A stretch of DNA of 64,000 nt, taken from NCBI GenBank assembly GCA_902579825.1, contig CACHII010000001.1:76832-140831 (forward strand). The letters are read 5' to 3'. The notes beneath the pieces are model-generated. The model made no database searches. It was not told the DNA's origin and was given only the letters and a program-made list of their open reading frames with translations. The translations under genes and the position numbers were made by a program. Source of the stretch: an uncultured SAR86 cluster bacterium. GTDB lineage: Bacteria; Pseudomonadota; Gammaproteobacteria; Magnimaribacterales; D2472. The first letter of the stretch is position 1. The number at the start of each line of letters is the position of its first letter. Shown piece by piece: positions 11,557 to 36,827 of this stretch.

Positions 11557-11569
11557 AGTCTATAAACCT

Positions 11570-12409: not shown

Positions 12410-12415
12410 GACTAA

Positions 12416-21354: not shown

Positions 21355-21689
21355 TGATAAGATTATCCAGTGATAGTGAATCGTCATCTGATATTGGTTC
21401 GGTCGTATTAGAAAAAGATCCAGAATTAAAACATCCACCCTCATATCAAGTCATACTAATAAATGATGATTTTACACCAATGGAGTTTGTAGTATTTGTT
21501 TTGCAAACTGTATTTGGACATACACATCAAAAATCAACAGAAATAATGATGACAGTTCATACTACAGGTAAAGGAGTTTGTGGTATATTCTCTAAAGAGA
21601 TAGCTGAAATGATGTCATTTGAGGTTAATACAATGGCAAAAGATCACGGACATCCATTATTAAGTGAAATTGAACCTTTAACAGATTAA
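21354..21689 (+). CDS. clpS: ATP-dependent Clp protease adaptor ClpS
   Basis: 111 aa with PPSYQVILINDDFTPMEFVVFVLQTVF. Its start overlaps the icd stop and its stop overlaps the clpA start. Confidence 0.9.
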   Translation: MIRLSSDSESSSDIGSVVLEKDPELKHPPSYQVILINDDFTPMEFVVFVLQTVFGHTHQKSTEIMMTVHTTGKGVCGIFSKEIAEMMSFEVNTMAKDHGHPLLSEIEPLTD

Positions 21690-23929
21690 TGTTTAGTAAA
21701 GAATTAGAATTATCAATTGCAAGTTTATTTGACAAAGCTCATGAGGCGAATATTCAATATATTACTGTTGAACATTTACTCTTGTTGATATTGTCAGATT
21801 ATGAAGTAAAAGAATTCTTTAAATCAGAAAATATACAACTAGACTCAATTAAACAAGATTTAAACGAGCATTTAAAAGAATCAATAGTAAAAAAAATTGA
21901 TCAACAAAAACCAGTTCAACCAACTTTAGGTTTTCAAAGGGTTCTTCAAAGAGCAGTTTTTCATATCCAGTCTTCTGGCAAAGGAGTTGTCAAACCAATT
22001 AATATACTTGTTGCGATATTCTCTGAAAAAGAGTCTCAATCAGTTTTTATTTTAAATAAATATAAAGTCAGTAGATTAGATGTAGTTACCTACTTATCTC
22101 ATGGACCAAAAAGTGTTGAAGGAAGCCCTGAACACAATGAAGATGATTATGATGATAACTCAAAATCAAAAACAAACAAAAATGAATTTTTAATCAATCT
22201 TAATAATCAAGCAAAAAATAAGAAAATTGATAAAGTAATTGGAAGAAAAAAAGAAATCGAAAGATTAATACAAATTTTATCAAGAAGAAATAAAAATAAT
22301 CCTCTTTTAGTTGGTGAAAGTGGCGTTGGAAAAACAGCTATTGCTGAGGGACTTGCCCACCTAATTGTAACTGGCGATATACCTGAAATTATAAAAGATT
22401 CTGTTGTTTATTCACTTGATATTGCAGGATTAATTGCTGGTACAAAATATAGAGGAGATTTTGAGAAAAGACTAAAGGGCGTTTTAACTTTTCTGTCAAA
22501 GGAAGACAAACCAATATTATTTATAGATGAAATACACACTATTATAGGCGCAGGTTCTGCATCAGGTAGTTCATTAGATGTCTCAAATTTACTTAAACCT
22601 GCACTTGGTAAAGGACAAATCAGATGCATTGGATCAACAACTTTCCAGGAATATAGAGGTATATTTAATCAAAACCAAGCTCTATCTAGGCGTTTTCAAA
22701 AAATAGATGTTGTTGAGCCTTCGTTTGATGAGTGCGAGGAGATATTAAAGGGTCTGATTGAGGTTTACGAAGAATATCATGATGTTTCTTATTCAGAAGA
22801 GTCAATCAAATCAGCCGTAGAATTATCGTCAAAATATATAAATGATAGATTTTTACCAGATAAAGCGATTGATGTAATTGATGAAACAGGCGCCTTTAAA
22901 AATATAAATAGAACAAACAAAAAATCAATAAAGATCACAAAAGAAGATATTGAGATGACTATATCAAAAATTACAAAAATTCCAGAACAATCTATCTCTT
23001 CAAGTGATAAGAAAAACCTTAAAAACATTGAAGAAAATTTAAAAAGAGTTATTTTTGGTCAAGATAAAGCAGTAGAAACATTATCTAATGCCATTAAATT
23101 ATCTAGAGTTGGTTTGAGAGATGAAAACAAAACTATTGGTTCATTTTTGTTTACAGGACCTACAGGAGTAGGTAAAACAGAAATATCAAAACAATTGTCA
23201 AATATTTTAGGCATAGATCTCGTTAGATTTGATATGAGTGAATATATGGAACGACATACAGTTTCACGTTTAATAGGAGCACCACCTGGATATGTTGGTT
23301 TTGACCAGGGTGGTTTATTAACTGAAGCTATAGTTAAAACACCGCATTGCGTTTTACTTTTAGACGAAATTGAAAAAGCTCATCCAGATATATTTAATAT
23401 TTTATTACAAGTCATGGATGCAGGTGTATTAACCGATAATAATGGAAGAAAGTCAGATTTTAGAAATGTTATTTTAATTATGACAACAAATATAGGTGCT
23501 GATTTATTAAGTAAAAGAAATATTGGATTCAATGAAACATCTAACGAGACCGATGCAATGAACTCATTAAATAAACTTTTTTCACCTGAATTTAGAAATA
23601 GGCTAGATGAAACAATTCAATTTAGCTATCTTGATAAGAAGGTAATATTATCAATAGTTGATAAATTTTTAACAAAGCTTCAAGCGCAGCTTGATAAAAG
23701 AAATGTAGAAATTGTTGTCTCTAAGAAAGTAGTTGAGTGGATTGCCGATAATGGTTATGACAAAGAGATGGGAGCAAGGCCTATGGAGAGGTTTATTTCA
23801 CAAAATATTAAAAAGCCACTAGTTGATAAGCTATTATTTGGTAATTTAAAGGGTGGAGGTGTCATTAAACTAGATCTTGATAATGGAGCCTTAAAATTTA
23901 CTGAATCTAAATCTAAAGTTAAAGTTTAA
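21689..23929 (+). CDS. clpA: ATP-dependent Clp protease ATP-binding subunit ClpA
   Basis: 746 aa with two AAA+ modules (GESGVGKT and GPTGVGKT Walker A). Confidence 0.93.
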   Translation: MFSKELELSIASLFDKAHEANIQYITVEHLLLLILSDYEVKEFFKSENIQLDSIKQDLNEHLKESIVKKIDQQKPVQPTLGFQRVLQRAVFHIQSSGKGVVKPINILVAIFSEKESQSVFILNKYKVSRLDVVTYLSHGPKSVEGSPEHNEDDYDDNSKSKTNKNEFLINLNNQAKNKKIDKVIGRKKEIERLIQILSRRNKNNPLLVGESGVGKTAIAEGLAHLIVTGDIPEIIKDSVVYSLDIAGLIAGTKYRGDFEKRLKGVLTFLSKEDKPILFIDEIHTIIGAGSASGSSLDVSNLLKPALGKGQIRCIGSTTFQEYRGIFNQNQALSRRFQKIDVVEPSFDECEEILKGLIEVYEEYHDVSYSEESIKSAVELSSKYINDRFLPDKAIDVIDETGAFKNINRTNKKSIKITKEDIEMTISKITKIPEQSISSSDKKNLKNIEENLKRVIFGQDKAVETLSNAIKLSRVGLRDENKTIGSFLFTGPTGVGKTEISKQLSNILGIDLVRFDMSEYMERHTVSRLIGAPPGYVGFDQGGLLTEAIVKTPHCVLLLDEIEKAHPDIFNILLQVMDAGVLTDNNGRKSDFRNVILIMTTNIGADLLSKRNIGFNETSNETDAMNSLNKLFSPEFRNRLDETIQFSYLDKKVILSIVDKFLTKLQAQLDKRNVEIVVSKKVVEWIADNGYDKEMGARPMERFISQNIKKPLVDKLLFGNLKGGGVIKLDLDNGALKFTESKSKVKV

Positions 23930-24148
23930 TTACCTTCCTCTAAAAGTTATTCTGCCAACGCTGAGATCATAAGGAGTCATTTCAACTTTCACCTTATCAC
24001 CAGTTAAAATTCTAATATAATGTTTTCTCATTTTTCCAGAAATATGAGCGGTTATGACATGACCATTGTCTAATTTTACTTTAAATTTTGTATTTGGAAG
24101 TGTTTCAATAACTTCTCCATCAAATTCTAATTGATCTTCTTTTGACAT
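23930..24148 (-). CDS. infA: Translation initiation factor IF-1
   Basis: 72 aa with an S1-like fold sequence ([24 protein letters not shown]...). It is convergent with clpA as in E. coli, and the two stop codons abut with 0 nt between them. Confidence 0.93.
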
Positions 24149-24226: not shown

Positions 24227-26854
24227 ATGAAAATTTTAAAATTATCTATACTTTTATCTTTATTTTTTTTAATTTCGTCTTGTGGTGGAGGCGGTTCAGC
24301 ACCATTTGCATTAACTCTTCCTACAAATACATCTATCAGTATTGATGAAGACAATGGACATACATCTACATTTATTGCATCAACAAATTATATGTCACAG
24401 ATAAGTTATGAAATTATTAACTCAACGACTAATGGCATATCTAATTTGTCATCTACTGGTTCATACTCATACCAACCCAATCAAGATTATTTTGGTACGG
24501 ACAGCTTTTCTATAAGAATTACTGCATCTAGAATTGATGATGATAGTGTACCTACTGGTGAAACATTGATAAGAACATTACCTGTCTCGATAACTATACG
24601 ACCAGTTAATGACCCCCCTGTAATCGATATACTTGATGATTTAAGTATCTATACAGATCTAAGTCTTATATTTGATGACACAATTTCTGTAAATGTTGAA
24701 ATTACTGATGTTGATAATGATATAAGTGATTTGTCTTTTTTTGGTCAGCTTCAAAATGAAACCGTTAACGGATTATTAGACATTACACAAACTATAGAAA
24801 ATGATGTTGCTGTTGATAATCAAAGTTTAATCTTTAATCTGGATACTATTCAAAATGCAGGATTATTTACCATGAATTTGTGTGCAAGTGATTTTGAAGA
24901 TAGTTCATGCGAAGGAGAGTTAGAAGGTTACTATATATCAAACAAGGATATAAAATTAGTTACATATAATTGTGATGATGATGATGGTAACAATTGTGAA
25001 ACTAGCCAACAATACTTATATTATTTAATTGGAAATCCATCCAATGATGCTAGAACAAATTATATTTTTATAGGTGATCAATTAAATGGTATAGATGAAA
25101 GAGATGAGTTTCATCTAAGGCTGCTTCAATCAATAAATAATTTGAAAAATTCTGATGCCAATGAAGTCTTTAATGATTATTTTAATGTAATTGTATTGGA
25201 AGAAATAGATCTAACCGGTGCGTCAGTATTTAATATTGAAACAGGCTGTTATGCCACTTGGGATTCTCGTATATATTGTATAGGAGAAGTAGATAGATCG
25301 ATGATAGGCGATGTAGTAGGAGATTGGGACACTGTATCTTTTTTAACAACTCTGTCGGGAAGGGGCGTTGCTCAAGGTTCTGTAAACATACAACCAATTT
25401 CACCAAGATCTGCAGAAATTGTTCAACATGAATTAGGTCATTCACATGGATTTATGGGGGATGAATATGACTCTCGTGGTGAAAGAACTTTTCCATCATG
25501 GTACGCAGAATTTAGTGTAAATACTACTGCAGTTTCAGATCCATCAATAGTTAAGTGGAATCATTTTATAGAAGACATGACTAATGTCCCAGGGGTTGAT
25601 TATGATGTTTGTTATAACTATTCAGATGGAAGCATTTATTATCGAGATGATCTTGACTATGAGGATTGTGAATGTTACATGAATACATATGATGAAAATG
25701 ATCCAAATTATGATCCAAATTACCCTGGAATAAATGAAGATGATTCATGTAAAGATAAAATTGGTTTGTTTCAAGGCACTTACTATGATGAGGTTGACAC
25801 ATATAGACCAAAATGGATTAGTGTTATGTGGTGCTGCTTCCTAGATTATGGAAAAATTAATGTTGAAGGATTTGCTATTGGTTCAATTAGCAATCAATTT
25901 AATGGGTTTGATGATTTCATAATTAAATCTGATATAGCTGATGATGTTGATTTGGATAATTCAGAGTCCTTGGGAGATTATATAACATTTGATGTTAATG
26001 GGGTTTTTGATGCCAACAAACTAAAATTATCTTGGTATATAGATGGAACCGAACAACCAAATTTAGAAAACCAATTAGTTGTAACATTTAATAGACCAAA
26101 TGATGATGCAATGACTACATATTCATGGCAGGTACATGATTTAACAGGAAATTTAATTGTTCCAAATGATCCTTTAAATCCAAGAGATTTATATGATGGT
26201 ATCTTTAATATGTGGTCATATTATGACGCCGATCCAAATACAAATCCAAATGCTAATCCAAACTATCCATATGTTGGAACATGGTATTGGCATAGAAACG
26301 ATGGAGTGAAAGATACTGATGATACAGTTGATTTATCTAACATTGACAATTACTTATATGCAGAACAATGTTGTGCTTTGGGTGTAGGGTACAAGATTAA
26401 TTGGAAAAATTATCAGCCTGCAGCCACAACTATTAAAGCTTCTACGTCTAACAACAAAAAAATTAATTACTTTAATATTAAGTTAGAACCCGGTAAGTCT
26501 GAAAAAATTGTAACGTTGAATTTATCTAATAATTCTATAGATATTAGTAATATTAAGATTGATCAAATAAAAAAAGACTATATAAAAAATAATAGAATAA
26601 ATTTTAAAGATAGATACATGATTACGTTTCATGATAAAGATATGAATCCAATCTACAATCTAGGACTAGGTGATCCATTTACAGCCCGAGTTCAACATAT
26701 AGGTTATGAGGATGAAAATATATTTAATATCAATATTCCTATTAAAGGGTTCAAAGTAGCATACCCAAAAGATTTAGATGCTTACTTTATTACTTATAGT
26801 ACAAGGCATAACAACAATACTTTTGAAGCAGTAAAGGTTATAGAATTAAAATAA
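24227..26854 (+). CDS. Lipoprotein with an N-terminal cadherin-like domain and a central M64-like zinc metallopeptidase domain
   Basis: 875 aa. The lipobox plus Gly/Ser tether reads FFLISSCGGGGSAP. A cadherin-like/VCBS-type module follows (YSYQPNQDYFGTDSFSIRI...ITIRPVNDPPVI). HELGHSHGFMGDEY (nt ~25427-25468) matches the HExxH...DEY pattern I recall for the peptidase M64 (IgA peptidase) family. The C-terminal part is rich in DPN/NPN low-complexity runs. Confidence 0.6.
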   Translation: MKILKLSILLSLFFLISSCGGGGSAPFALTLPTNTSISIDEDNGHTSTFIASTNYMSQISYEIINSTTNGISNLSSTGSYSYQPNQDYFGTDSFSIRITASRIDDDSVPTGETLIRTLPVSITIRPVNDPPVIDILDDLSIYTDLSLIFDDTISVNVEITDVDNDISDLSFFGQLQNETVNGLLDITQTIENDVAVDNQSLIFNLDTIQNAGLFTMNLCASDFEDSSCEGELEGYYISNKDIKLVTYNCDDDDGNNCETSQQYLYYLIGNPSNDARTNYIFIGDQLNGIDERDEFHLRLLQSINNLKNSDANEVFNDYFNVIVLEEIDLTGASVFNIETGCYATWDSRIYCIGEVDRSMIGDVVGDWDTVSFLTTLSGRGVAQGSVNIQPISPRSAEIVQHELGHSHGFMGDEYDSRGERTFPSWYAEFSVNTTAVSDPSIVKWNHFIEDMTNVPGVDYDVCYNYSDGSIYYRDDLDYEDCECYMNTYDENDPNYDPNYPGINEDDSCKDKIGLFQGTYYDEVDTYRPKWISVMWCCFLDYGKINVEGFAIGSISNQFNGFDDFIIKSDIADDVDLDNSESLGDYITFDVNGVFDANKLKLSWYIDGTEQPNLENQLVVTFNRPNDDAMTTYSWQVHDLTGNLIVPNDPLNPRDLYDGIFNMWSYYDADPNTNPNANPNYPYVGTWYWHRNDGVKDTDDTVDLSNIDNYLYAEQCCALGVGYKINWKNYQPAATTIKASTSNNKKINYFNIKLEPGKSEKIVTLNLSNNSIDISNIKIDQIKKDYIKNNRINFKDRYMITFHDKDMNPIYNLGLGDPFTARVQHIGYEDENIFNINIPIKGFKVAYPKDLDAYFITYSTRHNNNTFEAVKVIELK

Positions 26855-26885
26855 CAAAGTATTTCTTAAATTAGGTATTTAACTC

Positions 26886-28190
26886 ATGAAATTTAGATAT
26901 TTATTGTCTATATTATTAATATCAGCTTGTGGAGGAGGCGGCTCCTCTGGTGTTATGGATTATGATCCAGCCAGCTTGTCAACTTCAACTAATACAAACT
27001 TCCCATGTTTCCCAAACTGTCCTTTGCCTACAGCTGTTCAAAATGATGCAACTATTAAACTTATAAATGAAGGTTTTAATCAGCCCAAATCTAATCCAGA
27101 TCAATGGGCTATTTTTAGTACTGATATTGAACAATATTATGTAAACAGAGAAGATCTTATACAAAATTTATTAAATACAACATTTGGTGGATATATGAAT
27201 TATAACTATATGGTATTTAATGAAGATGGCCCTGATGAAATTAATACACCGATTATGAATAGATTAATAGAGCTTAAATATAATGGTTGGGAGAATGGCT
27301 ACTCAACTGAAGAACTTAGGAATGTATCTAGTTGTCTAGCAGGTGCAAATCCTAATGGTTGGGAAAAAGATTCAGAATATGAACAGCATTCAACCTGTAT
27401 GGTTTGGAAAAGTTTTCTTCTATATAGTCATGCAGCAAATAATCCAAACTATATGCCAGAAGATTATGAAATTGAAATTCAAATAGTCCAGCATATGCAG
27501 CATGAGTATTTTCATCATTATCAAAGAGCACATGCATTAGATAGAGGTTTAGATTATCAGACTGCTCCTGCAGATGATCCTAATCAAAGCGTCAATGCTC
27601 CGTGGTGGTGGATTGAAGGTGCTGCAATGTCAGCTGAATTTTGGTGGATAAGATCAAACTGGCAAAATCTTAATTTTTTAAATAAATATAATTCACAAGA
27701 TATTAATGAATTAATTACTTACCAAATAAATGGTCGTAATAGTTCTTTTTGGTGGTTTTTGCAAAGAATTCAGTCATCAGGACCATATAGAGAACATTCA
27801 GGACATATTAATGATGAACTAATTGATTGTAGTGGATGGCAGCTCGGTCCCGAACATTCTGACGGCTATCCAGAATATGGACATAATAACAATGATTGTG
27901 AAAATCAATTAGCGCCATTTGCACCGATTCATTTTATGGCACATAAATCCTCTTGGCAGATAGTTTTAAGGGATATACCATCAAAATATTATGAGTATGG
28001 ATTTTGGGGAGCTGTAGAACTTTATACAGGACTTAATGAAGAAGAGTTTTATTTGCAATTCAATGAAACTATGAGATCAACAAACTGGGAAGATATATCA
28101 ATGACATATGCTCCAGATGGTTGGAATATACCAAATGAATCTATAGACACTCATATAGATTTCTATAATATTGAATATTTTAATAATTAA
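26886..28190 (+). CDS. Lipoprotein, putative MA-clan zinc metallopeptidase (HExxH)
   Basis: 434 aa with the lipobox LLISACGGGGSSG. HEYFH (nt 27501-27515) is followed about 40 aa later by WWIEGAAMSAEF, which resembles the Peptidase_MA_2 W..EG.A arrangement. Confidence 0.45.
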   Translation: MKFRYLLSILLISACGGGGSSGVMDYDPASLSTSTNTNFPCFPNCPLPTAVQNDATIKLINEGFNQPKSNPDQWAIFSTDIEQYYVNREDLIQNLLNTTFGGYMNYNYMVFNEDGPDEINTPIMNRLIELKYNGWENGYSTEELRNVSSCLAGANPNGWEKDSEYEQHSTCMVWKSFLLYSHAANNPNYMPEDYEIEIQIVQHMQHEYFHHYQRAHALDRGLDYQTAPADDPNQSVNAPWWWIEGAAMSAEFWWIRSNWQNLNFLNKYNSQDINELITYQINGRNSSFWWFLQRIQSSGPYREHSGHINDELIDCSGWQLGPEHSDGYPEYGHNNNDCENQLAPFAPIHFMAHKSSWQIVLRDIPSKYYEYGFWGAVELYTGLNEEEFYLQFNETMRSTNWEDISMTYAPDGWNIPNESIDTHIDFYNIEYFNN

Positions 28191-28203
28191 CTTATTAATT
28201 TAA

Positions 28204-28236
28204 CATAATATATATTATGCGAACTAATATATTAGT
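28204..28236. terminator. Two adjacent perfect AT-rich palindromes between convergent genes (possible bidirectional terminator)
   Basis: The palindromes are CATAATATATATTATG (28204-28219) and ACTAATATATTAGT (28223-28236), read directly. The stems are almost entirely A/T, so stability is doubtful. Confidence 0.25.
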
Positions 28237-28242
28237 ATAGAT

Positions 28243-28548
28243 TTAAATATCAGGATATTTAGGACCACAAATTGTAGCTTTAAGGCCTGCTGCCCCTCCT
28301 ACTAACAATGGTTCCAATACATCCAAAAGACCTGTTTCAATCCTCCAATTAAGATACTTAGATTGATGATCTAATGATTCCCAATCTTCTATAAGATGAA
28401 CCGTACTAGTTGAATCTTCAATGTATGTATGAACTGATATACATCCATCAAATGATCTCGTTTCTGGTAAAGCAACTTTTAAGGTTTCTTTAAGATTATC
28501 TAACATCCCCTCCTTAGCTGGAAAAGATACAATTACTAAATTTTTCAT
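28243..28548 (-). CDS. Antibiotic-biosynthesis-monooxygenase (ABM) domain protein
   Basis: 101 aa with a ferredoxin-like ABM pattern (VIVSFPAKEGMLDNLKETL...VHLIEDWESLDHQSKYL). Confidence 0.6.
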   Translation of the reverse strand: MKNLVIVSFPAKEGMLDNLKETLKVALPETRSFDGCISVHTYIEDSTSTVHLIEDWESLDHQSKYLNWRIETGLLDVLEPLLVGGAAGLKATICGPKYPDI

Positions 28549-28656
28549 GTTTTCTCCTTTTTAAGGTAATTAATTAAATATAAATCAATAATAACCATAT
28601 ATTTATCAATATGAAAATTTAATGCAGATTTTTCTTAATTACATTAATATAATCTT

Positions 28657-31512
28657 ATGAAAATTAAATTAATTGCTCTACTTTTTATAATATCTTTAAC
28701 TAACGTTCTTTATTCAGATGACTTGATGAATCCAACATCTTATTCAAAAGATCTATATCAAATTCCTATTCTAGATGGCACATATTTAGAAGATGTGACT
28801 CATCCAGACGTGTTTTTGGGGTTTGGTATTGGAGAAAGAGTTGCTGCTCCTTGGCAAATAACAAACGCTCTTAAAAAATGGTCAAAAGAATCAGATAGAA
28901 TAAAAATCATTGAATATGCAAGAACTCATGAAGATAGACCTCTTCATGCAGTATTTATATCATCTCCGAACAATATTAAAAATTTAGATGCAATAAAAGA
29001 GGATATTAGTAAATTAGCTGATGCCAGAAATACCTCTGACAGACAAGCAAAATCATTAATAGATGATATGCCTGCGGTTGCATGGATGGCGTATTCTATT
29101 CATGGAAATGAAACATCTGGAGCAGATGGAGCTTTAGCAGCTATATATCATCTTATTGCTAGTATTGACGAAGACGTTATAGATATGTTGGATAATATGG
29201 TAATTATCGTTGACCCTTTAATGAATCCTGATGGGCGTGCAAGGTTTGCTAAATCTCTTGAACAATATAGAGGTACTGCACCCAATTATGATGATCAATC
29301 ATTGCTTCACACAGGTGACTGGCCTTATGGAAGAACAAATCATTATTATTTTGATTTAAATAGAGACTGGTTCTATTTAACCCAACCTGAAACGAAAGGA
29401 AGAGTTAAATTAATTAATGAATGGAGGCCACAAATACTTGTAGATGGTCATGAAATGGGTCCACAAGATACATTTATGACTGGTCCTCCTAGAGAGCCTA
29501 TTAATAAAAATATAGATACTGATTTAATTAAATGGGGTAATGTATTTGCACAAGATCAAGGAAGTGCTTTTGATAAAAGAAATTGGCGTTTCTATACTGG
29601 TGAATGGCATGAAGACCTCTATCCTGGTTATTCATTTTACGTACAATTTAGAGGTACTCTTGGCATTTTATATGAACAATCTAGGATGGCAGAGGATGGT
29701 GTTAGAAGACCAGAAGGAACTATACAATCTTATAAAGAATCTGTTCACCACCAATATATAAGTACTTTGGTCAATCTTGAGTCATTACTTAGCAATTCAA
29801 AGGAAATGTATAAAGACTATTGGGATGGCAGAAAATACAATGTCTCAAAAGATAGCATATATGCTAATCAAACTTTTGTAGTTTTACCAACAGATAATAA
29901 TACTAGGTTAAATACTTTAGCTAAAAAATTAAGAGCTCAAGATATAGAGCTTTATAAAAATACTAAAGATATTAAAGTCGAAAATGCTACTCTACAATCT
30001 GGTGAAATTATTGAAAATTATTCAATTCCTGCTGGAAGTATGATTATTCCTAATAGACAACCAGAGGCTCCACTTATTGCTGCAATATTAGAATTTGATG
30101 CTGACATAAATACAGATGTTTTAGTTGAAGAAAGACAAAAAAGTTTAAAAAGTGGTTCTTCAATTATGTATGACACCACTGCCTTTAACTTTACTATGAT
30201 GTATGGCTTAGATGCAGTTACATTAGATGAAAATTTAGATTCAAATCTAGAAACTTGGGACCCATCACCAGTTACTAGTGAAATTACTAAAGATGCAGTT
30301 ATTTGGGCAACTAATGGAGAAGATGATAATTCTGTCGCTTTTGCTGCGCGTCTAATGGAACAAAATATAGAAGTAAGGATAATTGATAAGGAATCTACCC
30401 TATCCAATCATAAATTATCTAGAGGAAGTATTGCTGTTTTGCCAATGGATAATCCAAACGTTAATAATTTACAAAATTTAGTAAAACTAGTTTCAGAAGA
30501 GTTAAATGTATCTGTAGTTTCAATTGAATCTGGATTTGGCCTAGAAGAGCTCCCAGATTGGGGTGGCAGGCATTTTAGATTATTAGAAAAACCTCAAATA
30601 GCTATGTTAAGCCATGAAGGTTTTAACTCATATGATGTAGGAGTTAGTTGGTGGTCATTAGATCATCATTTAGGAATAAGACACAGTCTAATAAATGCAT
30701 CACTTGCAAGTTATGGAGATTTAAGAAGATATAACACTATTATTGTACCTAGTGGTCGAGCAATTGATGAATATACAATAGATACCCTTCTTGATTGGGT
30801 TTCGCAAGGTGGGACATTAATTGCACATAATAGAAGCACTAGATTTTTAACATCAGAATATGGAATTGGCAGTGTTAAACAGCTCCAAAATACATTTAAT
30901 GAAAGTGAGATGTATAATTTTGATCTATTGAGAGAATTATATTCCCAATATGAAGATGTTAATAAAGAGAAAACAAATAACAACATTATAGATTTTGATA
31001 TAACTTATCCTTGGGAAGAATTAGAAGGAACTTTATCTGAAAAAGAACTTAAATCTAGAGATAAATGGCAATCAATTTTTATGCCATCAGGATCAATAAT
31101 TGCAGGAAGGATTGATGATGAACATTGGTTAACATTTGGAACACCAAATACTATTCCTGTTTTATATAGCAACTACCCTATTCTTATGGCAAGAAGTTAT
31201 GTTGATGTACCTGTAAGAATAGGTCAAATAATTTCTAATAATGAAATTAAGGAACCAAGAGTTATAAATTGGTCTAGCTTGCCTGCAGGTAATGATCTTA
31301 ATGTAAGAATGAGTGGATTAGTCTGGCCGGAGGCGTCCCAAAGGATTGCTAACTCTGCTTATTTAACAAGAGAAAGAATTGGAGATGGTCAGGTTATATT
31401 GTTTTCAGGTGAACCAAATTTTAGAGGAGCAACGCTTGGAACTAATAGATTATGGTTAAATGCCATCGTTTATGGTGCAGGATTAGGAACTAGATCAAGA
31501 ATAAACCCTTAA
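28657..31512 (+). CDS. Secreted M14-family zinc carboxypeptidase with a large C-terminal extension
   Basis: 951 aa with a signal peptide. M14 motifs are SIHGNETSG (HxxE Zn ligands), DPLMNPDGR and VDGHEMG. About 550 aa follow downstream, possibly GATase1-like, which I cannot verify. Confidence 0.75.
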   Translation: MKIKLIALLFIISLTNVLYSDDLMNPTSYSKDLYQIPILDGTYLEDVTHPDVFLGFGIGERVAAPWQITNALKKWSKESDRIKIIEYARTHEDRPLHAVFISSPNNIKNLDAIKEDISKLADARNTSDRQAKSLIDDMPAVAWMAYSIHGNETSGADGALAAIYHLIASIDEDVIDMLDNMVIIVDPLMNPDGRARFAKSLEQYRGTAPNYDDQSLLHTGDWPYGRTNHYYFDLNRDWFYLTQPETKGRVKLINEWRPQILVDGHEMGPQDTFMTGPPREPINKNIDTDLIKWGNVFAQDQGSAFDKRNWRFYTGEWHEDLYPGYSFYVQFRGTLGILYEQSRMAEDGVRRPEGTIQSYKESVHHQYISTLVNLESLLSNSKEMYKDYWDGRKYNVSKDSIYANQTFVVLPTDNNTRLNTLAKKLRAQDIELYKNTKDIKVENATLQSGEIIENYSIPAGSMIIPNRQPEAPLIAAILEFDADINTDVLVEERQKSLKSGSSIMYDTTAFNFTMMYGLDAVTLDENLDSNLETWDPSPVTSEITKDAVIWATNGEDDNSVAFAARLMEQNIEVRIIDKESTLSNHKLSRGSIAVLPMDNPNVNNLQNLVKLVSEELNVSVVSIESGFGLEELPDWGGRHFRLLEKPQIAMLSHEGFNSYDVGVSWWSLDHHLGIRHSLINASLASYGDLRRYNTIIVPSGRAIDEYTIDTLLDWVSQGGTLIAHNRSTRFLTSEYGIGSVKQLQNTFNESEMYNFDLLRELYSQYEDVNKEKTNNNIIDFDITYPWEELEGTLSEKELKSRDKWQSIFMPSGSIIAGRIDDEHWLTFGTPNTIPVLYSNYPILMARSYVDVPVRIGQIISNNEIKEPRVINWSSLPAGNDLNVRMSGLVWPEASQRIANSAYLTRERIGDGQVILFSGEPNFRGATLGTNRLWLNAIVYGAGLGTRSRINP

Positions 31513-31523
31513 TTGTTTAATTC

Positions 31524-33026
31524 CTAATCATTCGTAATAAAATCAGTTACCTCTTTTAAAAATCTATCAAAAGATGGTTGATGATTATACATCATATGAC
31601 CTGCTTCGAATTCTGAAAAAACCACCCTACTCATATCAACTGTGTTGTCATACATAAAGTTTTCAGCCGTAAAACAAGGAGTTGCTAAATCATAGAGTCC
31701 ACATGAAACATAAACTTTAAAATCTTTATTATATCTTTGAGCTCTAGCAATATCTGGAACTGTATTTACATATCCAAAATCATTACCTTTCCATTCTTGA
31801 GGATGTTTCCAACTTGAATAAACATCATAGTCGCCACTTTGATATAACATTTTCATTTCAACACCGATTTCACTAAACCAAGTATGTATAGCTGAAACGT
31901 AAGCCGACATAAATCCTTCACTTGATACATCGGTATCAGGATATTGACCTCCTGCCATGTAGTCAGAATTTTTATATCTTGAGTCTAATCTACCTACTGA
32001 ATAACCTTCATCTCTTAATAATTCTTTCCTAAAACTTGAAGGATCAACCCTCATATTGAAATCTTCTACAAATCTTAGGCTTAAACCTGTAAATTCAGAA
32101 TATTCTTTCATAACAGAATTCTTTTCATCTTCTGATATCCTTGTTCCTTTTAATAAAGCTGGTCCATAGACCTCTAAACTAAACTTTTTTGAATCTTCAT
32201 AAAAATCTTGGAGTGATTTTTCTGTTTCAATTTTTCCATGATAATAAGCTGTTGCTGCATATGAAGGTAAGAATCCATAATGCGGACTATTGTTACCAGA
32301 ATGGAAAACTAAATACTGATAATCAGAAGCAGGTGCAACCATTAACAAGCCATTGACTTCAATTGGTGTAATAGAACCAGATCTTAATTCTGATACTAAT
32401 AAAGGACCCCTGATACCTCCATAACTCTCACCTAGAATATATCTTGGAGAATTCCAACGTTTATTATCATTAATCCATCTTCTAATGAATTCAGCAATAA
32501 TTTTAGGATCTTCACTTACACCCCAAAATTCTTCAGGCTCATGACATCCAATTGCCCTGCTATAACCAGTACCTATTGGATCAATAAAAACAAGATCTGC
32601 ATCGCTTAGTGGAGATAATTTATTATCTTCGATTTTATATGGAGCAGATCCATCATCTGATGCATCACTAGGAACCTTAATAACCTTTGGCCCTAAAACA
32701 CCCATATGAAGCCATAATGATGCTGAACCAGGGCCTCCATTAAAACTAAATATTACTGATCTATTTTCATCAGACTCAACTATATACTCTGTATAAAAAA
32801 ATGATGCCATTGGTTCGCTTGGATTGTCTTTTTCATAAATAATTTTTTCTTTTAAACTTGCAACATAATCAAGTCTTTTTCCATTAAAAACACCAGAAAA
32901 GTTGTTAGAGAAAGCTCTTTCTTTAGTTGGAACGTTTTTTATACTACAGTTTTTAGCAGCTTCAGTACTAAAAATATTTGTAGCTATAAAAGTTGTTGTT
33001 AAAAATAAAATAAATATAAGTTTCAT
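31524..33026 (-). CDS. Secreted S10-family serine carboxypeptidase
   Basis: 500 aa with a signal peptide. It has FNGGPGSAS, the catalytic Ser in LGESYGG, Asp in CGLYDLATP and His in EAGHMMYNHQP. Confidence 0.75.
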   Translation of the reverse strand: MKLIFILFLTTTFIATNIFSTEAAKNCSIKNVPTKERAFSNNFSGVFNGKRLDYVASLKEKIIYEKDNPSEPMASFFYTEYIVESDENRSVIFSFNGGPGSASLWLHMGVLGPKVIKVPSDASDDGSAPYKIEDNKLSPLSDADLVFIDPIGTGYSRAIGCHEPEEFWGVSEDPKIIAEFIRRWINDNKRWNSPRYILGESYGGIRGPLLVSELRSGSITPIEVNGLLMVAPASDYQYLVFHSGNNSPHYGFLPSYAATAYYHGKIETEKSLQDFYEDSKKFSLEVYGPALLKGTRISEDEKNSVMKEYSEFTGLSLRFVEDFNMRVDPSSFRKELLRDEGYSVGRLDSRYKNSDYMAGGQYPDTDVSSEGFMSAYVSAIHTWFSEIGVEMKMLYQSGDYDVYSSWKHPQEWKGNDFGYVNTVPDIARAQRYNKDFKVYVSCGLYDLATPCFTAENFMYDNTVDMSRVVFSEFEAGHMMYNHQPSFDRFLKEVTDFITND

Positions 33027-33089: not shown

Positions 33090-34112
33090 ATGCTTTATAA
33101 CAATATACTTCATACGATTGGAAATACCCCTTCAATAAGACTCAAAAATATTTCCATAAATGATACAGAGCTTTACGTTAAGGCTGAGTATTTTAATCCT
33201 GCAAGTTCAGTTAAAGATAGGCTCGCAGTAAGTATTATTGAAAATGCTGAATCAAGGAACCAACTCAAAGAAGGTCAAACAGTTGTTGAGGCTACAAGCG
33301 GAAATACTGGGATTGGACTAGCAATGGTATGTGCTGCAAAAGGTTATCCTTTAGTAGTAACTATGCCTGATAGTGCATCAATTGAACGAAGAAAATTAAT
33401 GAGATTTTTAGGAGCAAAAGTACTTTTAACGCCTGCTGCAGAAGGAGGAACTGGAGCATACAAAAAAGCTAAACAGCTAGTAATAAAAAATGATTGGTTT
33501 TTTGCAAAACAATTTGAGAATGAAGATAACAGTATGGTGCATGAACAGACAACCGGTGAAGAGATAGTCAATGATTTTAAAGATATTGGATTAGATTATT
33601 GGATTTCTGGATATGGCACTGGAGGAACATTTACTGGTGTAAGTAGAGTCTTAAGAAAAAAAATGCCTAATACCAAATTAATTCTAACCGAACCAGACGT
33701 TGCACAGTTAATAGGCAGTAAACAAGAACAAATTAGAAATGATGATGGTTCTGCATCTCAATCTCATCCTGAGTGGAATCCACATCCTATACAAGGATGG
33801 ACTACGGATTTCATACCTCTTGTACTTCAAGAATCAATTGATAATAAATATTTTCACGAATTGATACCTGTTTCAGGAAATGATGGTATCTTTTGGGCTA
33901 ATGAATTAGCTAAAAAAGAAGGAATAATAACTGGAGTTTCAGGCGGGTCAACTTTTGCAATTGCTATTGAAGTAGCTAAAAAAGCTAAAAAAGGTTCAAA
34001 AATATTATGCATGCTTCCAGACACAGCTGAAAGATATATGTCTAGTATTTTATTTGACAGTATTGATTCAGAAATGAATGATGAAGAACAAAATATCTTA
34101 AATTCTGTTTAA
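33090..34112 (+). CDS. cysK: Cysteine synthase (O-acetylserine sulfhydrylase) family PLP enzyme
   Basis: 340 aa with the PLP Lys in NPASSVKDRLA, plus ATSGNTGIGLA, GTGGTFTG and GVSGGST. Confidence 0.8.
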   Translation: MLYNNILHTIGNTPSIRLKNISINDTELYVKAEYFNPASSVKDRLAVSIIENAESRNQLKEGQTVVEATSGNTGIGLAMVCAAKGYPLVVTMPDSASIERRKLMRFLGAKVLLTPAAEGGTGAYKKAKQLVIKNDWFFAKQFENEDNSMVHEQTTGEEIVNDFKDIGLDYWISGYGTGGTFTGVSRVLRKKMPNTKLILTEPDVAQLIGSKQEQIRNDDGSASQSHPEWNPHPIQGWTTDFIPLVLQESIDNKYFHELIPVSGNDGIFWANELAKKEGIITGVSGGSTFAIAIEVAKKAKKGSKILCMLPDTAERYMSSILFDSIDSEMNDEEQNILNSV

Positions 34113-34116: not shown

Positions 34117-34845
34117 TTATCTATTTATTATTTTTGCAGGAATTCCTGCTACCGTTACATTAGGCTCTACATTTTTTAAAACAAGGCTTCCAGCTGCAAT
34201 AGTAGAATTTTTACCAATTATTATATTTCCAAGGATAGTGCTTGATGCATAAATTGATACTCCTGACCTAATTTTTGGATGTCTATCTCCCTCGTCAAAG
34301 CCCCTTCCACCAAGAGTAACACCTTGAAATATAGAAACATTTTCATCAATTTCAGCTGTTTCACCTATTACAACACCTGTTGCATGATCTATCATCACTC
34401 CACCTTTAATTTTTGCTGCTGGATGAATATCTACTCCAAAAATTTCAGATGCTCTATTTTGTAAGAATAAAGCCATAGTATGCCTATCATTATTCCATAA
34501 ACAGTTCGCTGCTCTATAAGTAGCAAGACCTTGAAAGCCTTTATAGAATAAAATTGGTGTTGAAAAATATTTACATGCTGGATCATGATTCTTAAAGAAA
34601 ATTAAATCTTTTATAATAGCATCTTCAATACCATCACAATTTTCATATACATCTAAGATAAAATCATTTATGTCTGATGATTTCAAAGCATCACTATTTA
34701 ATTTTGAAGAAAGAATAGCAGCAATTGAACTTATTAATGATTTCTTTGATATGACCAGTGTTTCAAGATAAGGCTTCAATGATGGTTCTGCTTGAATTCT
34801 AAGCATAACCTCATCTTTAATTGTCTGCCAAATTTTATCTTTCAC
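34117..34845 (-). CDS. cysE: Serine O-acetyltransferase
   Basis: 242 aa with hexapeptide repeats (GVDIHPAAKIKGGVMIDHATGVVIGETAEI) and an N-terminal SATase helical domain. Confidence 0.88.
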   Translation of the reverse strand: MKDKIWQTIKDEVMLRIQAEPSLKPYLETLVISKKSLISSIAAILSSKLNSDALKSSDINDFILDVYENCDGIEDAIIKDLIFFKNHDPACKYFSTPILFYKGFQGLATYRAANCLWNNDRHTMALFLQNRASEIFGVDIHPAAKIKGGVMIDHATGVVIGETAEIDENVSIFQGVTLGGRGFDEGDRHPKIRSGVSIYASSTILGNIIIGKNSTIAAGSLVLKNVEPNVTVAGIPAKIINR

Positions 34846-34891: not shown

Positions 34892-36292
34892 TTATTCAAC
34901 ATACAAACCAAAACCTTCTTGAAGTCGAATAATATCATTCATTGAAGATTTATTTTTTGCTTGATAATATTCTTTAGATTCTTTTGGAAATAGAATAAAG
35001 TTTAAAAGATGTGTATCTTGTCTTGATATATCTTTAATATTATTTTCTTTAAAAAAGTTTGAAAATTCAGTTCTATGTTCTTTTATTGATTTAAAATTAT
35101 TAACAGTATCATAATCATAGTTTTCAATTCTTTTTTTTAATTTCAAGGATATTTTTCCAGGTATTTTTCCATATCTACCCATTAGAAGATCTACAAATTC
35201 TTTATTTAAAGTTTTATATCTTTTTCCATCAAGTACATTCATTAAAGCTTGCGCACCTACTATTTGTGATGACGGTGTTACCAAAGGCACGTATCCTACA
35301 TCTGCTCTTATCTTAGGTATCTCTTTGATTAAATCTTTTAATTTATTCTGTTTTTTCAAATCTGATAATTGTTTCTCTAAGATGCTTAGCATGCCTCCAG
35401 GTACCTGATTAATTAACATGTTGATATCAGCACCTCTAAGAGATCCCTCATATTCACTATATTCAGATCTTATTGATTGAAAATATTTAGATATCTCGGA
35501 AAGAAGATTCATATTAAATGGATTTTCTTTATCATCATAAATCATAGATATTAAACTTTCTGTAGCAGTATGTGCGTATAAATTACTAAAAGATGATATA
35601 GAGGTGTCAAGATTATCAATACCTGCTTCATAAGCCTTAAAGTTTGTAGCATCTGCTAAACCAGTTGTTGAATGTGTATGAAGATGAATAGGAATATTTA
35701 AATTTTTTTTAAGTTTTTTCACTAATTCATAACATATCTTTGGCCTTAATAAACCAGCCATATCTTTAATAGCTATTGACTTAGCTCCAATGTCCTCGAT
35801 ATCTTTACCTAATTTTATCCAATATTTTTCATTATGGATTGGGCTAGTAGTGTAACAAATAGTGCCTTGTGAGTTTTTACCCTCATTATTAACAAATTCA
35901 ATTGAAGATTTAATATTATTAATATCGTTTAATGAATCGAAGATTCTAAAAATATGAATACCATTCTTTACCGAATTTTTTACAAACAACGATATTACTT
36001 CATCACTATATTCTTTATAACCAACAAGATTTTTTCCTCTTAAAAGCATTTGAAGCTGTGTTTTTTTAAAGTGTTTTTTAAAAATTTTTAATCTGGACCA
36101 TGGATTTTCATTTAAAAACCTTAAACAACAATCGTAAGTAGCCCCACCCCAAACCTCGACTGAAGAGAAGCCAACTTTATCCATTTTCGACAAAATAGGT
36201 ATCATATCTTCTGTTTTCATTCTTGTTGCAATTAAAGATTGTTGTCCATCTCTTAATACAACTTCAGTAATTTTTGGATATTTATGATTCAT
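34892..36292 (-). CDS. Carboxyltransferase (OadA / PycB / transcarboxylase-5S-like) lacking a biotinyl domain
   Basis: 466 aa. The HMGL-like TIM barrel start is VVLRDGQQSL, followed by metal ligands (HLHTHSTTG) and a PYC_OADA-type domain. The protein ends ...RLQEGFGLYVE with no AMKM biotinylation motif. Confidence 0.7.
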   Translation of the reverse strand: MNHKYPKITEVVLRDGQQSLIATRMKTEDMIPILSKMDKVGFSSVEVWGGATYDCCLRFLNENPWSRLKIFKKHFKKTQLQMLLRGKNLVGYKEYSDEVISLFVKNSVKNGIHIFRIFDSLNDINNIKSSIEFVNNEGKNSQGTICYTTSPIHNEKYWIKLGKDIEDIGAKSIAIKDMAGLLRPKICYELVKKLKKNLNIPIHLHTHSTTGLADATNFKAYEAGIDNLDTSISSFSNLYAHTATESLISMIYDDKENPFNMNLLSEISKYFQSIRSEYSEYEGSLRGADINMLINQVPGGMLSILEKQLSDLKKQNKLKDLIKEIPKIRADVGYVPLVTPSSQIVGAQALMNVLDGKRYKTLNKEFVDLLMGRYGKIPGKISLKLKKRIENYDYDTVNNFKSIKEHRTEFSNFFKENNIKDISRQDTHLLNFILFPKESKEYYQAKNKSSMNDIIRLQEGFGLYVE

Positions 36293-36398: not shown

Positions 36399-36827
36399 TT
36401 AATTTATAAAAACTGTATGGTCTTTACCGGATTCAGCAACTCTAATGACTAATATATCGGAGCAAACCTCTCCAAGATCTGGTGCATCAGATTCTCCACC
36501 ATGCACCCAGTCAGATTTTTCAAACCAATATTCACCATTTTCATAAGTCTTCCATTTACCAGATGATTTAGATTGAGATTTACCCTCTAAAACATAAACA
36601 AGTGTTCCAGCAGCTGGATGAAAATGTTTCTCTACAGTTCCTTGACTACAAGTTTTTCTTCTTTCAACGTGCATATCCATTCCATTGCCCATATTGAATA
36701 TTTCTGATGAAACTAAGCCTGGAAACGATTGCTCATTATGGTCATCCGAGTTTACAAATAATGATATATTTGTTAAGAGAGTAATAAGTAGAGTATATTT
36801 AATAATATATTTATTCATGTTATTCAC
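36399..36827 (-). CDS. Secreted cupin-domain protein
   Basis: 142 aa with a signal peptide. The cupin motifs are EKHFHPAAGTLVYVLEG and GEYWFEKSDWVHGG. Confidence 0.6.
   Translation of the reverse strand: MNNMNKYIIKYTLLITLLTNISLFVNSDDHNEQSFPGLVSSEIFNMGNGMDMHVERRKTCSQGTVEKHFHPAAGTLVYVLEGKSQSKSSGKWKTYENGEYWFEKSDWVHGGESDAPDLGEVCSDILVIRVAESGKDHTVFIN

What the first reader, a model, noticed from the sequence alone, without database searches (positions are those of the whole stretch)
24227..33026. Island of exported or lipid-anchored peptidases from four different families
Four of the five genes in 8.8 kb are predicted extracytoplasmic peptidases:
- an M64-like lipoprotein (24227-26854);
- an HExxH MA-type lipoprotein (26886-28190);
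- a 951-aa M14 carboxypeptidase (28657-31512);
- an S10 serine carboxypeptidase (31524-33026).

Together they provide two putative endopeptidases and two mechanistically different carboxypeptidases. That is the complement needed to reduce external protein to free amino acids at the cell surface. No transporter or regulator is encoded among them. The clustering looks like a surface proteolysis locus that has not, to my knowledge, been described as a unit.
Basis: partly seen in the sequence, partly recalled or inferred. Interest (0 to 1): 0.55.

Follow-up and report, generated by a model that had tools for sequence, protein, structure and literature searches.

The report
SAR86 cluster of exported peptidase genes
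In an abundant marine bacterium of the SAR86 group, four separately transcribed genes for exported protein-cutting enzymes sit side by side; three belong to well-known families and one to an unnamed family, and the grouping is a lineage-specific neighbourhood rather than a demonstrated functional unit.

Summary
The observation largely holds. The window is SAR86 (Magnimaribacterales) DNA, and the five ORFs lie at the stated coordinates, but the ABM gene and the S10 gene are on the minus strand.

- **Three known families.** Pfam supports M64, M14 and S10 above its curated cut-offs, and the catalytic motifs are invariant in relatives.
- **The 434-aa lipoprotein ("P2").** It matches no Pfam, NCBIfam or PDB entry. 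Its family keeps an HExxH motif plus a Glu about 34 residues downstream. Four members lose the first His and that Glu together. Distant relatives match Pfam Peptidase_M61. It is probably a gluzincin-like metallohydrolase of an unnamed, marine-restricted family.
- **Export.** Both lipoproteins have conserved lipoboxes. M14 and S10 have signal-peptide-like N-termini.

The "surface proteolysis unit" reading is only partly supported.

- The genes form at least four transcription units.
- Relatives have typA, oadA, a cyclase or DUF1993 genes among the peptidase genes.
- In 80 M14-anchored metagenome loci, 7 of 36 testable loci carry S10, 3 of 17 carry M64 and 1 of 17 carries P2.
- Outside SAR86, P2 was not found beside any homologue of the three peptidases.
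- Surface exposure is untested; a periplasmic location is at least as likely.

Overall this is a modestly interesting neighbourhood made mostly of known kinds of enzyme.

The parts
23930..24148 (-). infA (translation initiation factor IF-1, 72 aa). Conserved left boundary of the variable interval, immediately upstream of the M64 gene.
   Evidence: ORF. PF01176 is annotated on the identical position in relatives.
24227..26854 (+). 875-aa lipoprotein of the M64 (igalysin) family. It has a lipobox, Ig-like beta-sandwich domains (about residues 30-250), a catalytic region (about 366-562) and an unassigned C-terminal region.
   Evidence: Pfam Peptidase_M64 38.1 bits (cut-off 26) and Big_9. Lipobox ISSC with Cys19, invariant in relatives. 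The catalytic region is the most conserved part. The AF2 model is confident only for the N-terminal beta domains.
25427..25468 (+). Zinc-binding motif H401-E-L-G-H405 ... D412-E413-Y414 of the M64-like protein.
   Evidence: Invariant in alignment A4. The H-to-D spacing of 11 and the following E-Y match HExxHxxxGxxD-E-Y of Thomasclavelia ramosa IgAse (PMC12237041). Gly is at +7 rather than +8.
26886..28190 (+). 'P2': 434-aa lipoprotein of an unnamed family, a putative gluzincin-like zinc hydrolase. It starts 31 bp after the M64 gene and is probably co-transcribed with it.
   Evidence: No Pfam, NCBIfam or PDB sequence hit. Lipobox ISAC with Cys15. AF2 pLDDT 86, pTM 0.85. No Foldseek PDB match with E<=1. 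hhalign probability 99.2% to relatives that match Pfam Peptidase_M61.
27501..27617 (+). Proposed metal site of P2: H206-E-Y-F-H210 on one predicted helix and E244 (in WWIEGAA) on the next.
   Evidence: Invariant or nearly invariant in A1. 99 of 128 longer family members match the strict HExxH...WxxEG pattern, and most of the rest keep both elements. The only four with His changed to Asn all also have Glu changed to Gln. Predicted helices 193-217 and 240-261.
28243..28548 (-). 101-aa ABM-domain protein with no export signal. It is divergently paired with the M14 gene.
   Evidence: Pfam ABM 25.8 bits. No hydrophobic N-terminus. The ABM(-)/M14(+) pair recurs in many SAR86 loci.
28657..31512 (+). 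951-aa exported M14 zinc carboxypeptidase homologue with a large C-terminal extension of about 600 aa.
   Evidence: Pfam Peptidase_M14 59.4 bits. H149-G-N-E152 and NPDGR align with carboxypeptidase M 1uwy. D233-L-N-R236, H265 and E340 are invariant in A2. Their assignment as the N144/R145, H196 and E270 equivalents is my inference from spacing. Signal-like N-terminus.
31524..33026 (-). 500-aa exported S10 serine carboxypeptidase homologue, convergent with M14 (11-bp gap) and divergent from cysK.
   Evidence: Pfam Peptidase_S10 57.9 bits covering profile positions 25-363 of 420. NGGPG and G-E-S201-Y-G-G align with carboxypeptidase Y. D446 and H477 (AGHM) are invariant in A3. Signal-like N-terminus. 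A cluster member is named 'carboxypeptidase C (cathepsin A)' by JGI.
33090..34112 (+). cysK (cysteine synthase, PALP fold). Conserved right boundary of the variable interval.
   Evidence: ORF. PF00291 is annotated on orthologues. Present at the right edge in most relatives.

Best explanation
The region is a lineage-specific gene neighbourhood in a flexible stretch of the SAR86 (Magnimaribacterales) chromosome, between clpS-clpA-infA and cysK.

**The four exported hydrolases.**
1. An outer-membrane lipoprotein of the M64/igalysin metalloendopeptidase family, carrying fast-evolving Ig-like domains.
2. A second lipoprotein (P2) from an unnamed, marine-restricted family. It most likely binds zinc through HExxH plus a downstream Glu, as gluzincins do.
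3. A Sec-exported 951-aa M14 metallocarboxypeptidase.
4. A Sec-exported S10 serine carboxypeptidase.

**Transcription.** There are at least four units: M64-P2 forward, ABM reverse, M14 forward, S10 reverse.

**Likely role (inferred).** The enzymes act in the cell envelope (periplasm and/or outer membrane) on peptides and proteins. This would supply oligopeptides and amino acids to a streamlined cell reported to have oligopeptide transporters and amino-acid auxotrophy.

**Origin of the grouping.** The adjacency reflects descent plus piecemeal gain and loss in a variable interval that also collects other exported hydrolases in relatives. It is not a dedicated co-regulated locus.

**Shown versus inferred.** Shown: family membership of three enzymes, intact motifs, the synteny pattern. 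Inferred: export route, location, substrates, and any cooperation between the enzymes.
For: - **Organism.** The closest loci are SAR86 single-cell and metagenome-assembled genomes.
- **Enzyme identities.**
- **P2 metal site and link to the MA clan.**
- **Export signals.**
- **Same order in close populations.** L043 and L055-L058 have the window's order.
- **Variable slot between M64 and ABM/M14.** It holds P2, a cyclase, typA, an unknown gene plus typA, or oadA.
- **Variable slot between M14 and S10.** It holds DUF1993 or other small genes.
- **Independent presence and absence around M14.** S10 is present in 7 of 36 testable loci, M64 in 3 of 17 and P2 in 1 of 17.
- **Other contents of the interval in relatives.** A TonB-dependent receptor, Abhydrolase_1, DSBA and Lactamase_B genes.
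- **Mosaic identity.** L044 has clpA 95% and M14 87% identity to the window; L055 has clpA 85% and M14 96%.
- **No shared upstream motif.** No shared motif beyond AT-rich promoter-like strings.
- **Physiological background.** SAR86 oligopeptide ABC transporters, auxotrophy and many TonB-dependent receptors are reported in PMC3358033.
Against: - Four exported peptidase-family genes among five neighbours is unlikely under random placement. The M64/M14/S10 trio persists down to 58% M64 identity (L049/L131), which could reflect selection for linkage.
- No expression, localisation or activity data were available.
- P2 has no direct Pfam hit, and its confident model has no Foldseek PDB match, so its hydrolase nature rests on motifs and transitive homology.
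- The M64 catalytic domain could not be modelled (pLDDT below 50).
Confidence: 0.6

Rival explanations
1. This is a dedicated surface proteolysis locus. The two lipoproteins are surface-exposed endopeptidases that cut external protein, and the two carboxypeptidases finish the job to free amino acids. The genes are kept together because they work together and are co-regulated.
For: - Local enrichment: four of five genes.
- The identical four-gene order occurs in several populations.
- The M64/M14/S10 trio is retained across lineages with 58-99% M64 identity.
- The Ig-like and C-terminal domains of M64 evolve fast while the catalytic core is conserved, as expected for an exposed protein.
Against: - Mixed orientation and at least four transcription units.
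- Housekeeping genes are interspersed in relatives.
- Components are present or absent independently.
- P2 is unlinked to peptidases elsewhere.
- No shared operator-like motif.
- No evidence of a surface-export route. The default for Proteobacteria is a periplasmic location.
- No aminopeptidase, transporter or regulator is present.
Confidence: 0.2
2. The grouping is coincidental. The enzymes have unrelated roles, for example envelope or peptidoglycan-peptide turnover for M14, a narrow-specificity target for M64 (as with IgA cleavage by its characterised relative), and a non-peptide substrate for P2. The interval is simply a dumping ground for exported accessory proteins.
For: - In relatives the same interval holds unrelated exported or accessory genes: Lactamase_B, Abhydrolase_1, DSBA, a TonB-dependent receptor and a cyclase.
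- In other SAR86 lineages the P2 domain is fused to an Esterase_PHB/Abhydrolase_2 domain, which hints at a substrate with ester bonds.
- The characterised M64 enzyme is highly substrate-specific (PMC12237041).
- SAR86 has been proposed to degrade peptidoglycan (PMC3358033).
Against: - Three different peptidase families staying adjacent over considerable divergence is more than a random collection of accessory genes would predict.
- The M14 motifs resemble the N/E-type carboxypeptidases M and D.
Confidence: 0.15
3. P2 is not a hydrolase at all. It is a structural or binding lipoprotein, and its HExxH motif is conserved for a non-catalytic reason.
For: - No Pfam, NCBIfam or PDB sequence match.
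- No Foldseek PDB hit with E<=1 despite a confident model.
- Four family members lack the first His and the Glu yet persist.
Against: - HExxH and the downstream Glu are conserved in nearly all members, at 22% mean column identity.
- The two residues are lost only together.
- hhalign gives 99.2% probability to proteins that pass the Pfam Peptidase_M61 cut-off.
- The weak hits are all gluzincins: M61, M9, DUF5700 and aminopeptidase N.
Confidence: 0.05

Closest known systems
M64 / igalysin metallopeptidases (IgAse of Thomasclavelia ramosa; unpublished JCSG Bacteroides structures)
   Same: Pfam PF09471 match above the cut-off. Zinc motif with Asp as third ligand at +11 from the first His, followed by Glu-Tyr. 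Multidomain, membrane-anchored and extracytoplasmic.
   Different: - About 875 aa with a lipobox rather than a Gram-positive sortase anchor.
- Gly at +7 rather than +8 from the first His.
- N-terminal Ig-like/Big_9 domains.
- From a free-living oligotrophic marine bacterium with no IgA to cleave; substrate unknown.
- No significant PDB sequence hit even with a profile.
M14 zinc carboxypeptidases, N/E-like (carboxypeptidases M and D)
   Same: HxxE, NPDG, DLNR, and later His and Glu at the expected spacing. It aligns with 1uwy over the zinc-binding segment.
   Different: Pfam covers only the first half of the catalytic domain. The protein is 951 aa, with about 600 residues of unassigned C-terminal domains that give sub-threshold hits (below Pfam's cut-offs) to GH42M/GLMA-type domains. 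No member is characterised, to my knowledge.
S10 serine carboxypeptidases (carboxypeptidase Y, cathepsin A; bacterial COG2939)
   Same: NGGPG, GESYGG and AGHM motifs. Pfam match over most of the profile.
   Different: Bacterial and very diverged from the eukaryotic enzymes (PDB profile E = 0.08). Biochemistry untested.
Gluzincins of clan MA: M61 glycyl aminopeptidase, M9 collagenase, M1 aminopeptidase N (the comparison set for P2)
   Same: HExxH on one helix and a Glu in an 'xEGxA' motif on the next helix. The link is transitive, through relatives that pass the Peptidase_M61 cut-off.
   Different: - No direct Pfam hit.
- The spacing to the Glu is about 34 residues.
- The N-terminal alpha/beta and C-terminal helical domains have no PDB counterpart by Foldseek.
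- The family is small (178 representatives among 1.84 billion) and was found only in marine plankton sequences.
Peptidase-containing polysaccharide/protein utilisation loci of marine Bacteroidota (comparison drawn from my general knowledge)
   Same: Clustering of genes for exported or lipid-anchored hydrolases in a marine heterotroph.
   Different: There is no SusC/SusD pair, regulator or transporter here, and it is not an operon. A TonB-dependent receptor appears in the interval only in one distant SAR86 lineage.

Membership tests
MEROPS M64 / igalysin (Pfam PF09471) | Sequence match to the family profile above the curated threshold | tested here: met
   38.1 bits against a cut-off of 26; residues 378-535 match profile positions 125-283 of 302. 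Relatives carry the same precomputed domain and the NCBI name 'M64 family metallopeptidase'.
MEROPS M64 / igalysin (Pfam PF09471) | Zinc motif HExxHxxxGxxD followed by Glu-Tyr | tested here: met
   H401ELGH405SHGFMGD412E413Y414 is invariant in 12 sequences. The motif definition is from PMC12237041. The Gly register differs by one position.
MEROPS M64 / igalysin (Pfam PF09471) | Metzincin fold of the catalytic domain (five-stranded sheet, active-site helix, Met-turn) | tested here: inconclusive
   The AF2 model has pLDDT below 50 over residues 366-562, so no fold search was attempted.
MEROPS M14 (Pfam PF00246) | Profile match and the HxxE zinc ligands | tested here: met
   59.4 bits against a cut-off of 21.6. 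IHGNETSG aligns to MHGDETVG of carboxypeptidase M.
MEROPS M14 (Pfam PF00246) | Third zinc ligand His, catalytic Glu and substrate-binding Asn-Arg | tested here: inconclusive
   N235-R236, H265 and E340 are invariant. The H265-to-E340 spacing of 75 compares with 74 in carboxypeptidase A. These equivalences are my inference; Pfam and PDB alignments do not cover this half.
MEROPS S10 (Pfam PF00450) | Profile match and the catalytic Ser in GESYxG | tested here: met
   57.9 bits against a cut-off of 21.9. GESYGG aligns to GESYAG of carboxypeptidase Y.
MEROPS S10 (Pfam PF00450) | Catalytic Asp and His completing the triad | tested here: inconclusive
   D446 and H477 (EAGHMMY) are invariant. They were assigned by motif resemblance, not by an alignment to a solved structure.
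Clan MA gluzincins (for P2) | HExxH plus a downstream Glu as third ligand, conserved family-wide | tested here: met
   Four members show coupled loss of the His (to Asn) and the Glu (to Gln).
Clan MA gluzincins (for P2) | Significant sequence or profile similarity to a recognised MA family | tested here: inconclusive
   There is no direct Pfam hit. Members give only weak M61, M9 and DUF5700 hits. The transitive link is strong: hhalign 99.2% probability to proteins that pass the Peptidase_M61 cut-off.
Clan MA gluzincins (for P2) | Zincin fold similarity to solved structures | tested here: not met
Bacterial lipoproteins (M64-like and P2) | Lipobox [LVI][ASTVI][GAS]C after a positively charged and then hydrophobic N-terminal signal | tested here: met
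   ISSC at residue 19 and ISAC at residue 15. The Cys is invariant in A4 and common in A1. LipoP and SignalP were not run.
Co-regulated functional gene cluster / operon | Same strand, short gaps, and co-occurrence conserved beyond inheritance | tested here: not met
   Mixed strands. Unrelated genes are interspersed in relatives. Components are present or absent independently.
Cell-surface (exposed) enzymes | Demonstrated or predicted surface-export route | not testable with these tools
   Only N-terminal signals can be read. Gly at +2 predicts outer-membrane sorting, not which face of the membrane.

The most novel reading that the evidence does not exclude
P2 (26886-28190) founds a new, still unnamed metallopeptidase family of clan MA. 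Its overall architecture has no counterpart among solved structures. The family is confined to streamlined marine plankton and is spread among them by horizontal transfer: SAR86, SAR202, Marinacidobacterales, Actinomarina, Aquiluna and Poseidoniia archaea. In one SAR86 sublineage it works with an adjacent igalysin-type lipoprotein and two carboxypeptidases as an envelope-bound system for harvesting dissolved protein.
Probability: 0.25. Interest if true: 0.55.

Novelty: new member of a known kind. Interest (0 to 1): 0.3.

Why it matters
[quoted passage not shown] Published genome analyses emphasise lipids, sugars and TonB-dependent receptors. In the text search of Dupont 2012 (PMC3358033) the only hit was a mention of D,D-carboxypeptidases for peptidoglycan breakdown, and the 2024 isolate paper (PMC11582366) had no hit at all.

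A set of exported peptidases with intact active sites gives concrete candidates for envelope-bound protein and peptide degradation in this group. It also gives one uncharacterised, marine-restricted zinc-hydrolase-like family worth biochemical study. The clustering itself adds little mechanistic insight until co-expression or cooperation is shown.

Tried and rejected
- **Exact-sequence look-up of P2.** Nothing was on record in the contig index, although the sequence is in the protein collection.
- **PDB sequence searches.** The single M64, M14 and S10 proteins found nothing. Profiles found only short marginal matches. The P2 profile found nothing at E<=10.
- **AF2 model of the M64-like protein.** The catalytic domain was too poor to use, with a mean pLDDT of 58 and values below 50 over residues 366-562. 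No fold search was run on it.
- **Promoter and terminator scan.** Counts were at or below shuffled expectation in this AT-rich DNA.
- **Shared upstream motifs.** Only AT-rich strings and one 9-mer were shared, so there is no evidence of a common operator.
- **P2 gene context outside SAR86.** No recurring partner was found.
- **Literature.** No description of this locus or of SAR86 exported peptidases was found.
- **Mobile island rejected.** GC content matches the flanks at about 30-33%, no tRNA gene is present in the window, and none of the genes scanned in and around the cluster matched an integrase or transposase family.

Full report
**Source and layout.** The window has about 30% GC. Its closest public relatives are SAR86 cluster single-cell and metagenome-assembled genomes, and the exact proteins occur on a 374-kb NCBI contig. 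The region reads as follows:

| Gene | Coordinates | Strand |
|---|---|---|
| mnmA | 18926-20011 | - |
| icd | 20101-21354 | + |
| clpS | 21354-21689 | + |
| clpA | 21689-23929 | + |
| infA | 23930-24148 | - |
| M64-like | 24227-26854 | + |
| P2 | 26886-28190 | + |
| ABM | 28243-28548 | - |
| M14 | 28657-31512 | + |
| S10 | 31524-33026 | - |
| cysK | 33090-34112 | + |
| cysE | 34117-34845 | - |
| oadA | 34892-36292 | - |

ABM and S10 are on the minus strand, so there are at least four transcription units: M64-P2 (31-bp gap), ABM, M14 and S10.

**The three recognised families.** Pfam matches exceed the curated cut-offs: M64 38.1 bits against 26, M14 59.4 against 21.6, S10 57.9 against 21.9. NCBIfam has no specific model for any of them.
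- **M64.** The motif H401ELGH405...D412E413Y414 is invariant across twelve relatives with 48-81% identity. It has the same His-to-Asp spacing and trailing Glu-Tyr as the igalysin motif HExxHxxxGxxD-E-Y described for Thomasclavelia ramosa IgAse (PMC12237041). The catalytic region is the best conserved part (63-95% identity). The N-terminal Ig-like domains and the C-terminal region diverge fast. AlphaFold modelled only the beta-sandwich domains with confidence, so the fold test is inconclusive.
- **M14.** IHGNETSG and NPDGR align with carboxypeptidase M. N235-R236, H265 and E340 are invariant and sit at the spacing expected for the remaining catalytic residues; that assignment is my inference.
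- **S10.** NGGPG and GESYGG align with carboxypeptidase Y. D446 and H477 are invariant.
- **Names given by sources.** Cluster members are called 'M64 family metallopeptidase', 'M14 family metallopeptidase' and 'carboxypeptidase C (cathepsin A)'.

**The second lipoprotein, P2.**
- It matches nothing in Pfam, NCBIfam or PDB sequences.
- Its family is small: 178 representatives at E<=1e-3 among 1.84 billion cluster representatives.
- It was recovered only from marine sources: SAR86, other marine Gammaproteobacteria, SAR202/Dehalococcoidia, Marinacidobacterales, Actinomarina, Aquiluna, and Poseidoniia and Thaumarchaeota bins.
- In a 28-sequence alignment with 22% mean column identity, E207, Y208, F209 and H210 are invariant, and H206 and E244 (in WWIEGAA) are nearly so.
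- Of 128 longer members, 99 fit a strict HExxH...WxxEG pattern, and most of the rest keep both elements.
- The only four members with Asn in place of the first His also all have Gln in place of E244. Coupled loss is what one expects if both residues serve one metal site.
- Weak Pfam hits among members are all gluzincins: M61, M9 and DUF5700.
- Distant relatives found with the family profile pass the Peptidase_M61 cut-off. They align to the P2 family with hhalign probability 99.2%, matching HEYFH and the xEGxA motif.
- The AlphaFold model is confident (pLDDT 86, pTM 0.85). It places HExxH and E244 on consecutive helices after a beta strand.
- Foldseek found no PDB structure with E<=1, and the more sensitive libraries were unavailable.
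- I conclude that P2 is probably a gluzincin-like zinc hydrolase of an undescribed family. Peptidase activity and endo- versus exo-action are unproven.
- In TMED112- and MED-G83-type SAR86, the P2 domain is fused behind an Esterase_PHB/Abhydrolase_2 domain. This leaves the substrate class open.

**Export.**
- Both lipoproteins have a positively charged N-terminus, a hydrophobic stretch and a lipobox (ISSC at residue 19, ISAC at residue 15) followed by GGGG. The Cys is conserved in relatives.
- M14 and S10 have signal-peptide-like N-termini; ABM does not.
- These are heuristic readings. Gly at +2 predicts outer-membrane sorting but says nothing about the face of the membrane. Surface exposure is therefore not supported by any data here.

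**Is the clustering conserved?** The exact order M64-P2-ABM-M14-(small ORF)-S10-cysK recurs in several metagenomes (L043, L055-L058). The wider picture is of a flexible interval between infA and cysK:

| Locus | Arrangement |
|---|---|
| L044-L046 | A cyclase gene replaces P2, and DUF1993 lies between M14 and S10 |
| L047/L048 | typA lies between M64 and ABM |
| L049 | An unknown gene plus typA lies in that slot |
| L050/L051 | M64 is followed by oadA, an unknown gene and a TonB-dependent receptor; no M14 or S10 is nearby |
| L052 | M64, oadA and M14 are present without S10 |
| L003/L004 | clpA, esterase-P2 and M14 are present without M64 or S10 |
| L001 | P2 lies apart, with no M64, M14 or S10 within 10 kb |

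Anchoring on M14 in metagenome contigs (80 loci) gave these counts:
- S10 lies downstream in 7 of 36 loci with at least 3 kb of flank.
- M64 lies upstream in 3 of 17 loci with at least 6 kb of flank.
- P2 lies upstream in 1 of those 17 loci.

Outside SAR86, none of the examined P2 loci held a homologue of the three peptidases. Identities are mosaic: L044 has clpA 95% but M14 87%, whereas L055 has clpA 85% but M14 96% and P2 93%. M64 is the most diverged gene at 69-78%. This suggests recombination within the interval.

**Surroundings.** About 35 other window genes scanned with Pfam encode central metabolism, NQR-associated ApbE, glutathione S-transferases, ETF and similar functions. None belongs to a classical secreted peptidase family. 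The exceptions are a DJ-1/PfpI protein, an alpha/beta hydrolase and a beta-lactamase-family protein. So the local enrichment is real. A sodium:alanine symporter lies 25 kb away. No shared regulatory motif was found upstream of the three promoter-bearing gaps, and the promoter scan was uninformative.

**Interpretation.** The best reading is a lineage-specific neighbourhood of independently transcribed genes for envelope hydrolases. It was assembled and eroded piecemeal in a variable chromosomal interval. The enzymes plausibly feed the oligopeptide and amino-acid economy of SAR86, for which oligopeptide ABC transporters, auxotrophy and many TonB-dependent receptors have been reported (PMC3358033). 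A periplasmic site of action, on peptides that have crossed the outer membrane, fits the signals at least as well as surface digestion. The dedicated 'surface proteolysis locus' remains possible but lacks support from orientation, synteny or regulation.

**Novelty.** Three genes are ordinary members of known families and are already named as such in public annotation. The grouping has not been described in the literature I could search, but it is not a new kind of system. P2 is the one new element: an unnamed, marine-restricted, probably zinc-dependent hydrolase family.

Noticed in passing
window 24227-26854; loci L044-L048, L055-L058: The M64-like gene is far more diverged between SAR86 lineages (69-78% identity) than its flanks (clpA 85-95%, M14 87-96%, S10 92-96%). 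The divergence is concentrated in the N-terminal Ig-like domains and the C-terminal region. Left and right flanks give conflicting relatedness (L044 versus L055), which suggests recombination within the interval.
   Followed up: partly
L002 8999-11173, L003 8975-11173, protein P0003: In TMED112- and MED-G83-type SAR86, the P2 domain is the C-terminal half of a lipoprotein of about 730 aa. Its N-terminal half matches Esterase_PHB/Abhydrolase_2. This fusion hints that P2's substrate may not be plain protein.
   Followed up: partly
proteins P0011, P0012, P0014, P0030 (P2 family): Four family members have NEYFH in place of HEYFH and also WWVQGTA in place of WWxEGxA. This coupled loss of both proposed metal ligands suggests a pseudoenzyme branch.
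   Followed up: yes
window 28243-28656 and many loci of L059-L138: A small ABM-domain gene without an export signal is divergently paired with the M14 gene, and this pairing recurs in many SAR86 lineages. In the M14-anchored loci, ABM hits appear more often than S10 or M64 hits. The reason is unknown.
   Followed up: partly
window 8339-12817; L052 19193-22670; L001 8968-11721: The gene set Abhydrolase_1, DSBA, an unknown 152-aa gene, Lactamase_B, DJ-1/PfpI and DUF1330 lies 12 kb upstream of the cluster here. In other SAR86 lineages, parts of it (Abhydrolase_1-DSBA-Lactamase_B, and Lactamase_B-P2-DUF1330) lie inside the clpA-cysK interval. This indicates repeated rearrangement.
   Followed up: no
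L050 15606-17735, L051 8597-10741: In one distant SAR86 lineage, a TonB-dependent receptor gene sits in the same interval about 3 kb downstream of the M64 gene. It is the only transporter seen near any of these peptidase genes.
   Followed up: no
window 36399-37554 and 38986-40197: Just downstream lie two small proteins with signal-peptide-like N-termini (a 142-aa cupin-like protein and a 244-aa protein with no Pfam match) and a 403-aa beta-lactamase-family serine hydrolase (possibly S12-type).
   Followed up: no
window 4922-8335: A ceramidase-family gene is followed by three consecutive glutathione S-transferase-like genes on the minus strand.
   Followed up: no
window 56829-59495: A GH16 glycoside hydrolase gene lies next to a sodium:alanine symporter gene.
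   Followed up: no
loci L011-L041 (P2 homologues): The P2 family occurs in phylogenetically distant marine plankton: SAR202, Marinacidobacterales, Actinomarina, Aquiluna, Poseidoniia and a Thaumarchaeota bin. It was not seen in non-marine records, which suggests habitat-bound horizontal spread.
   Followed up: partly
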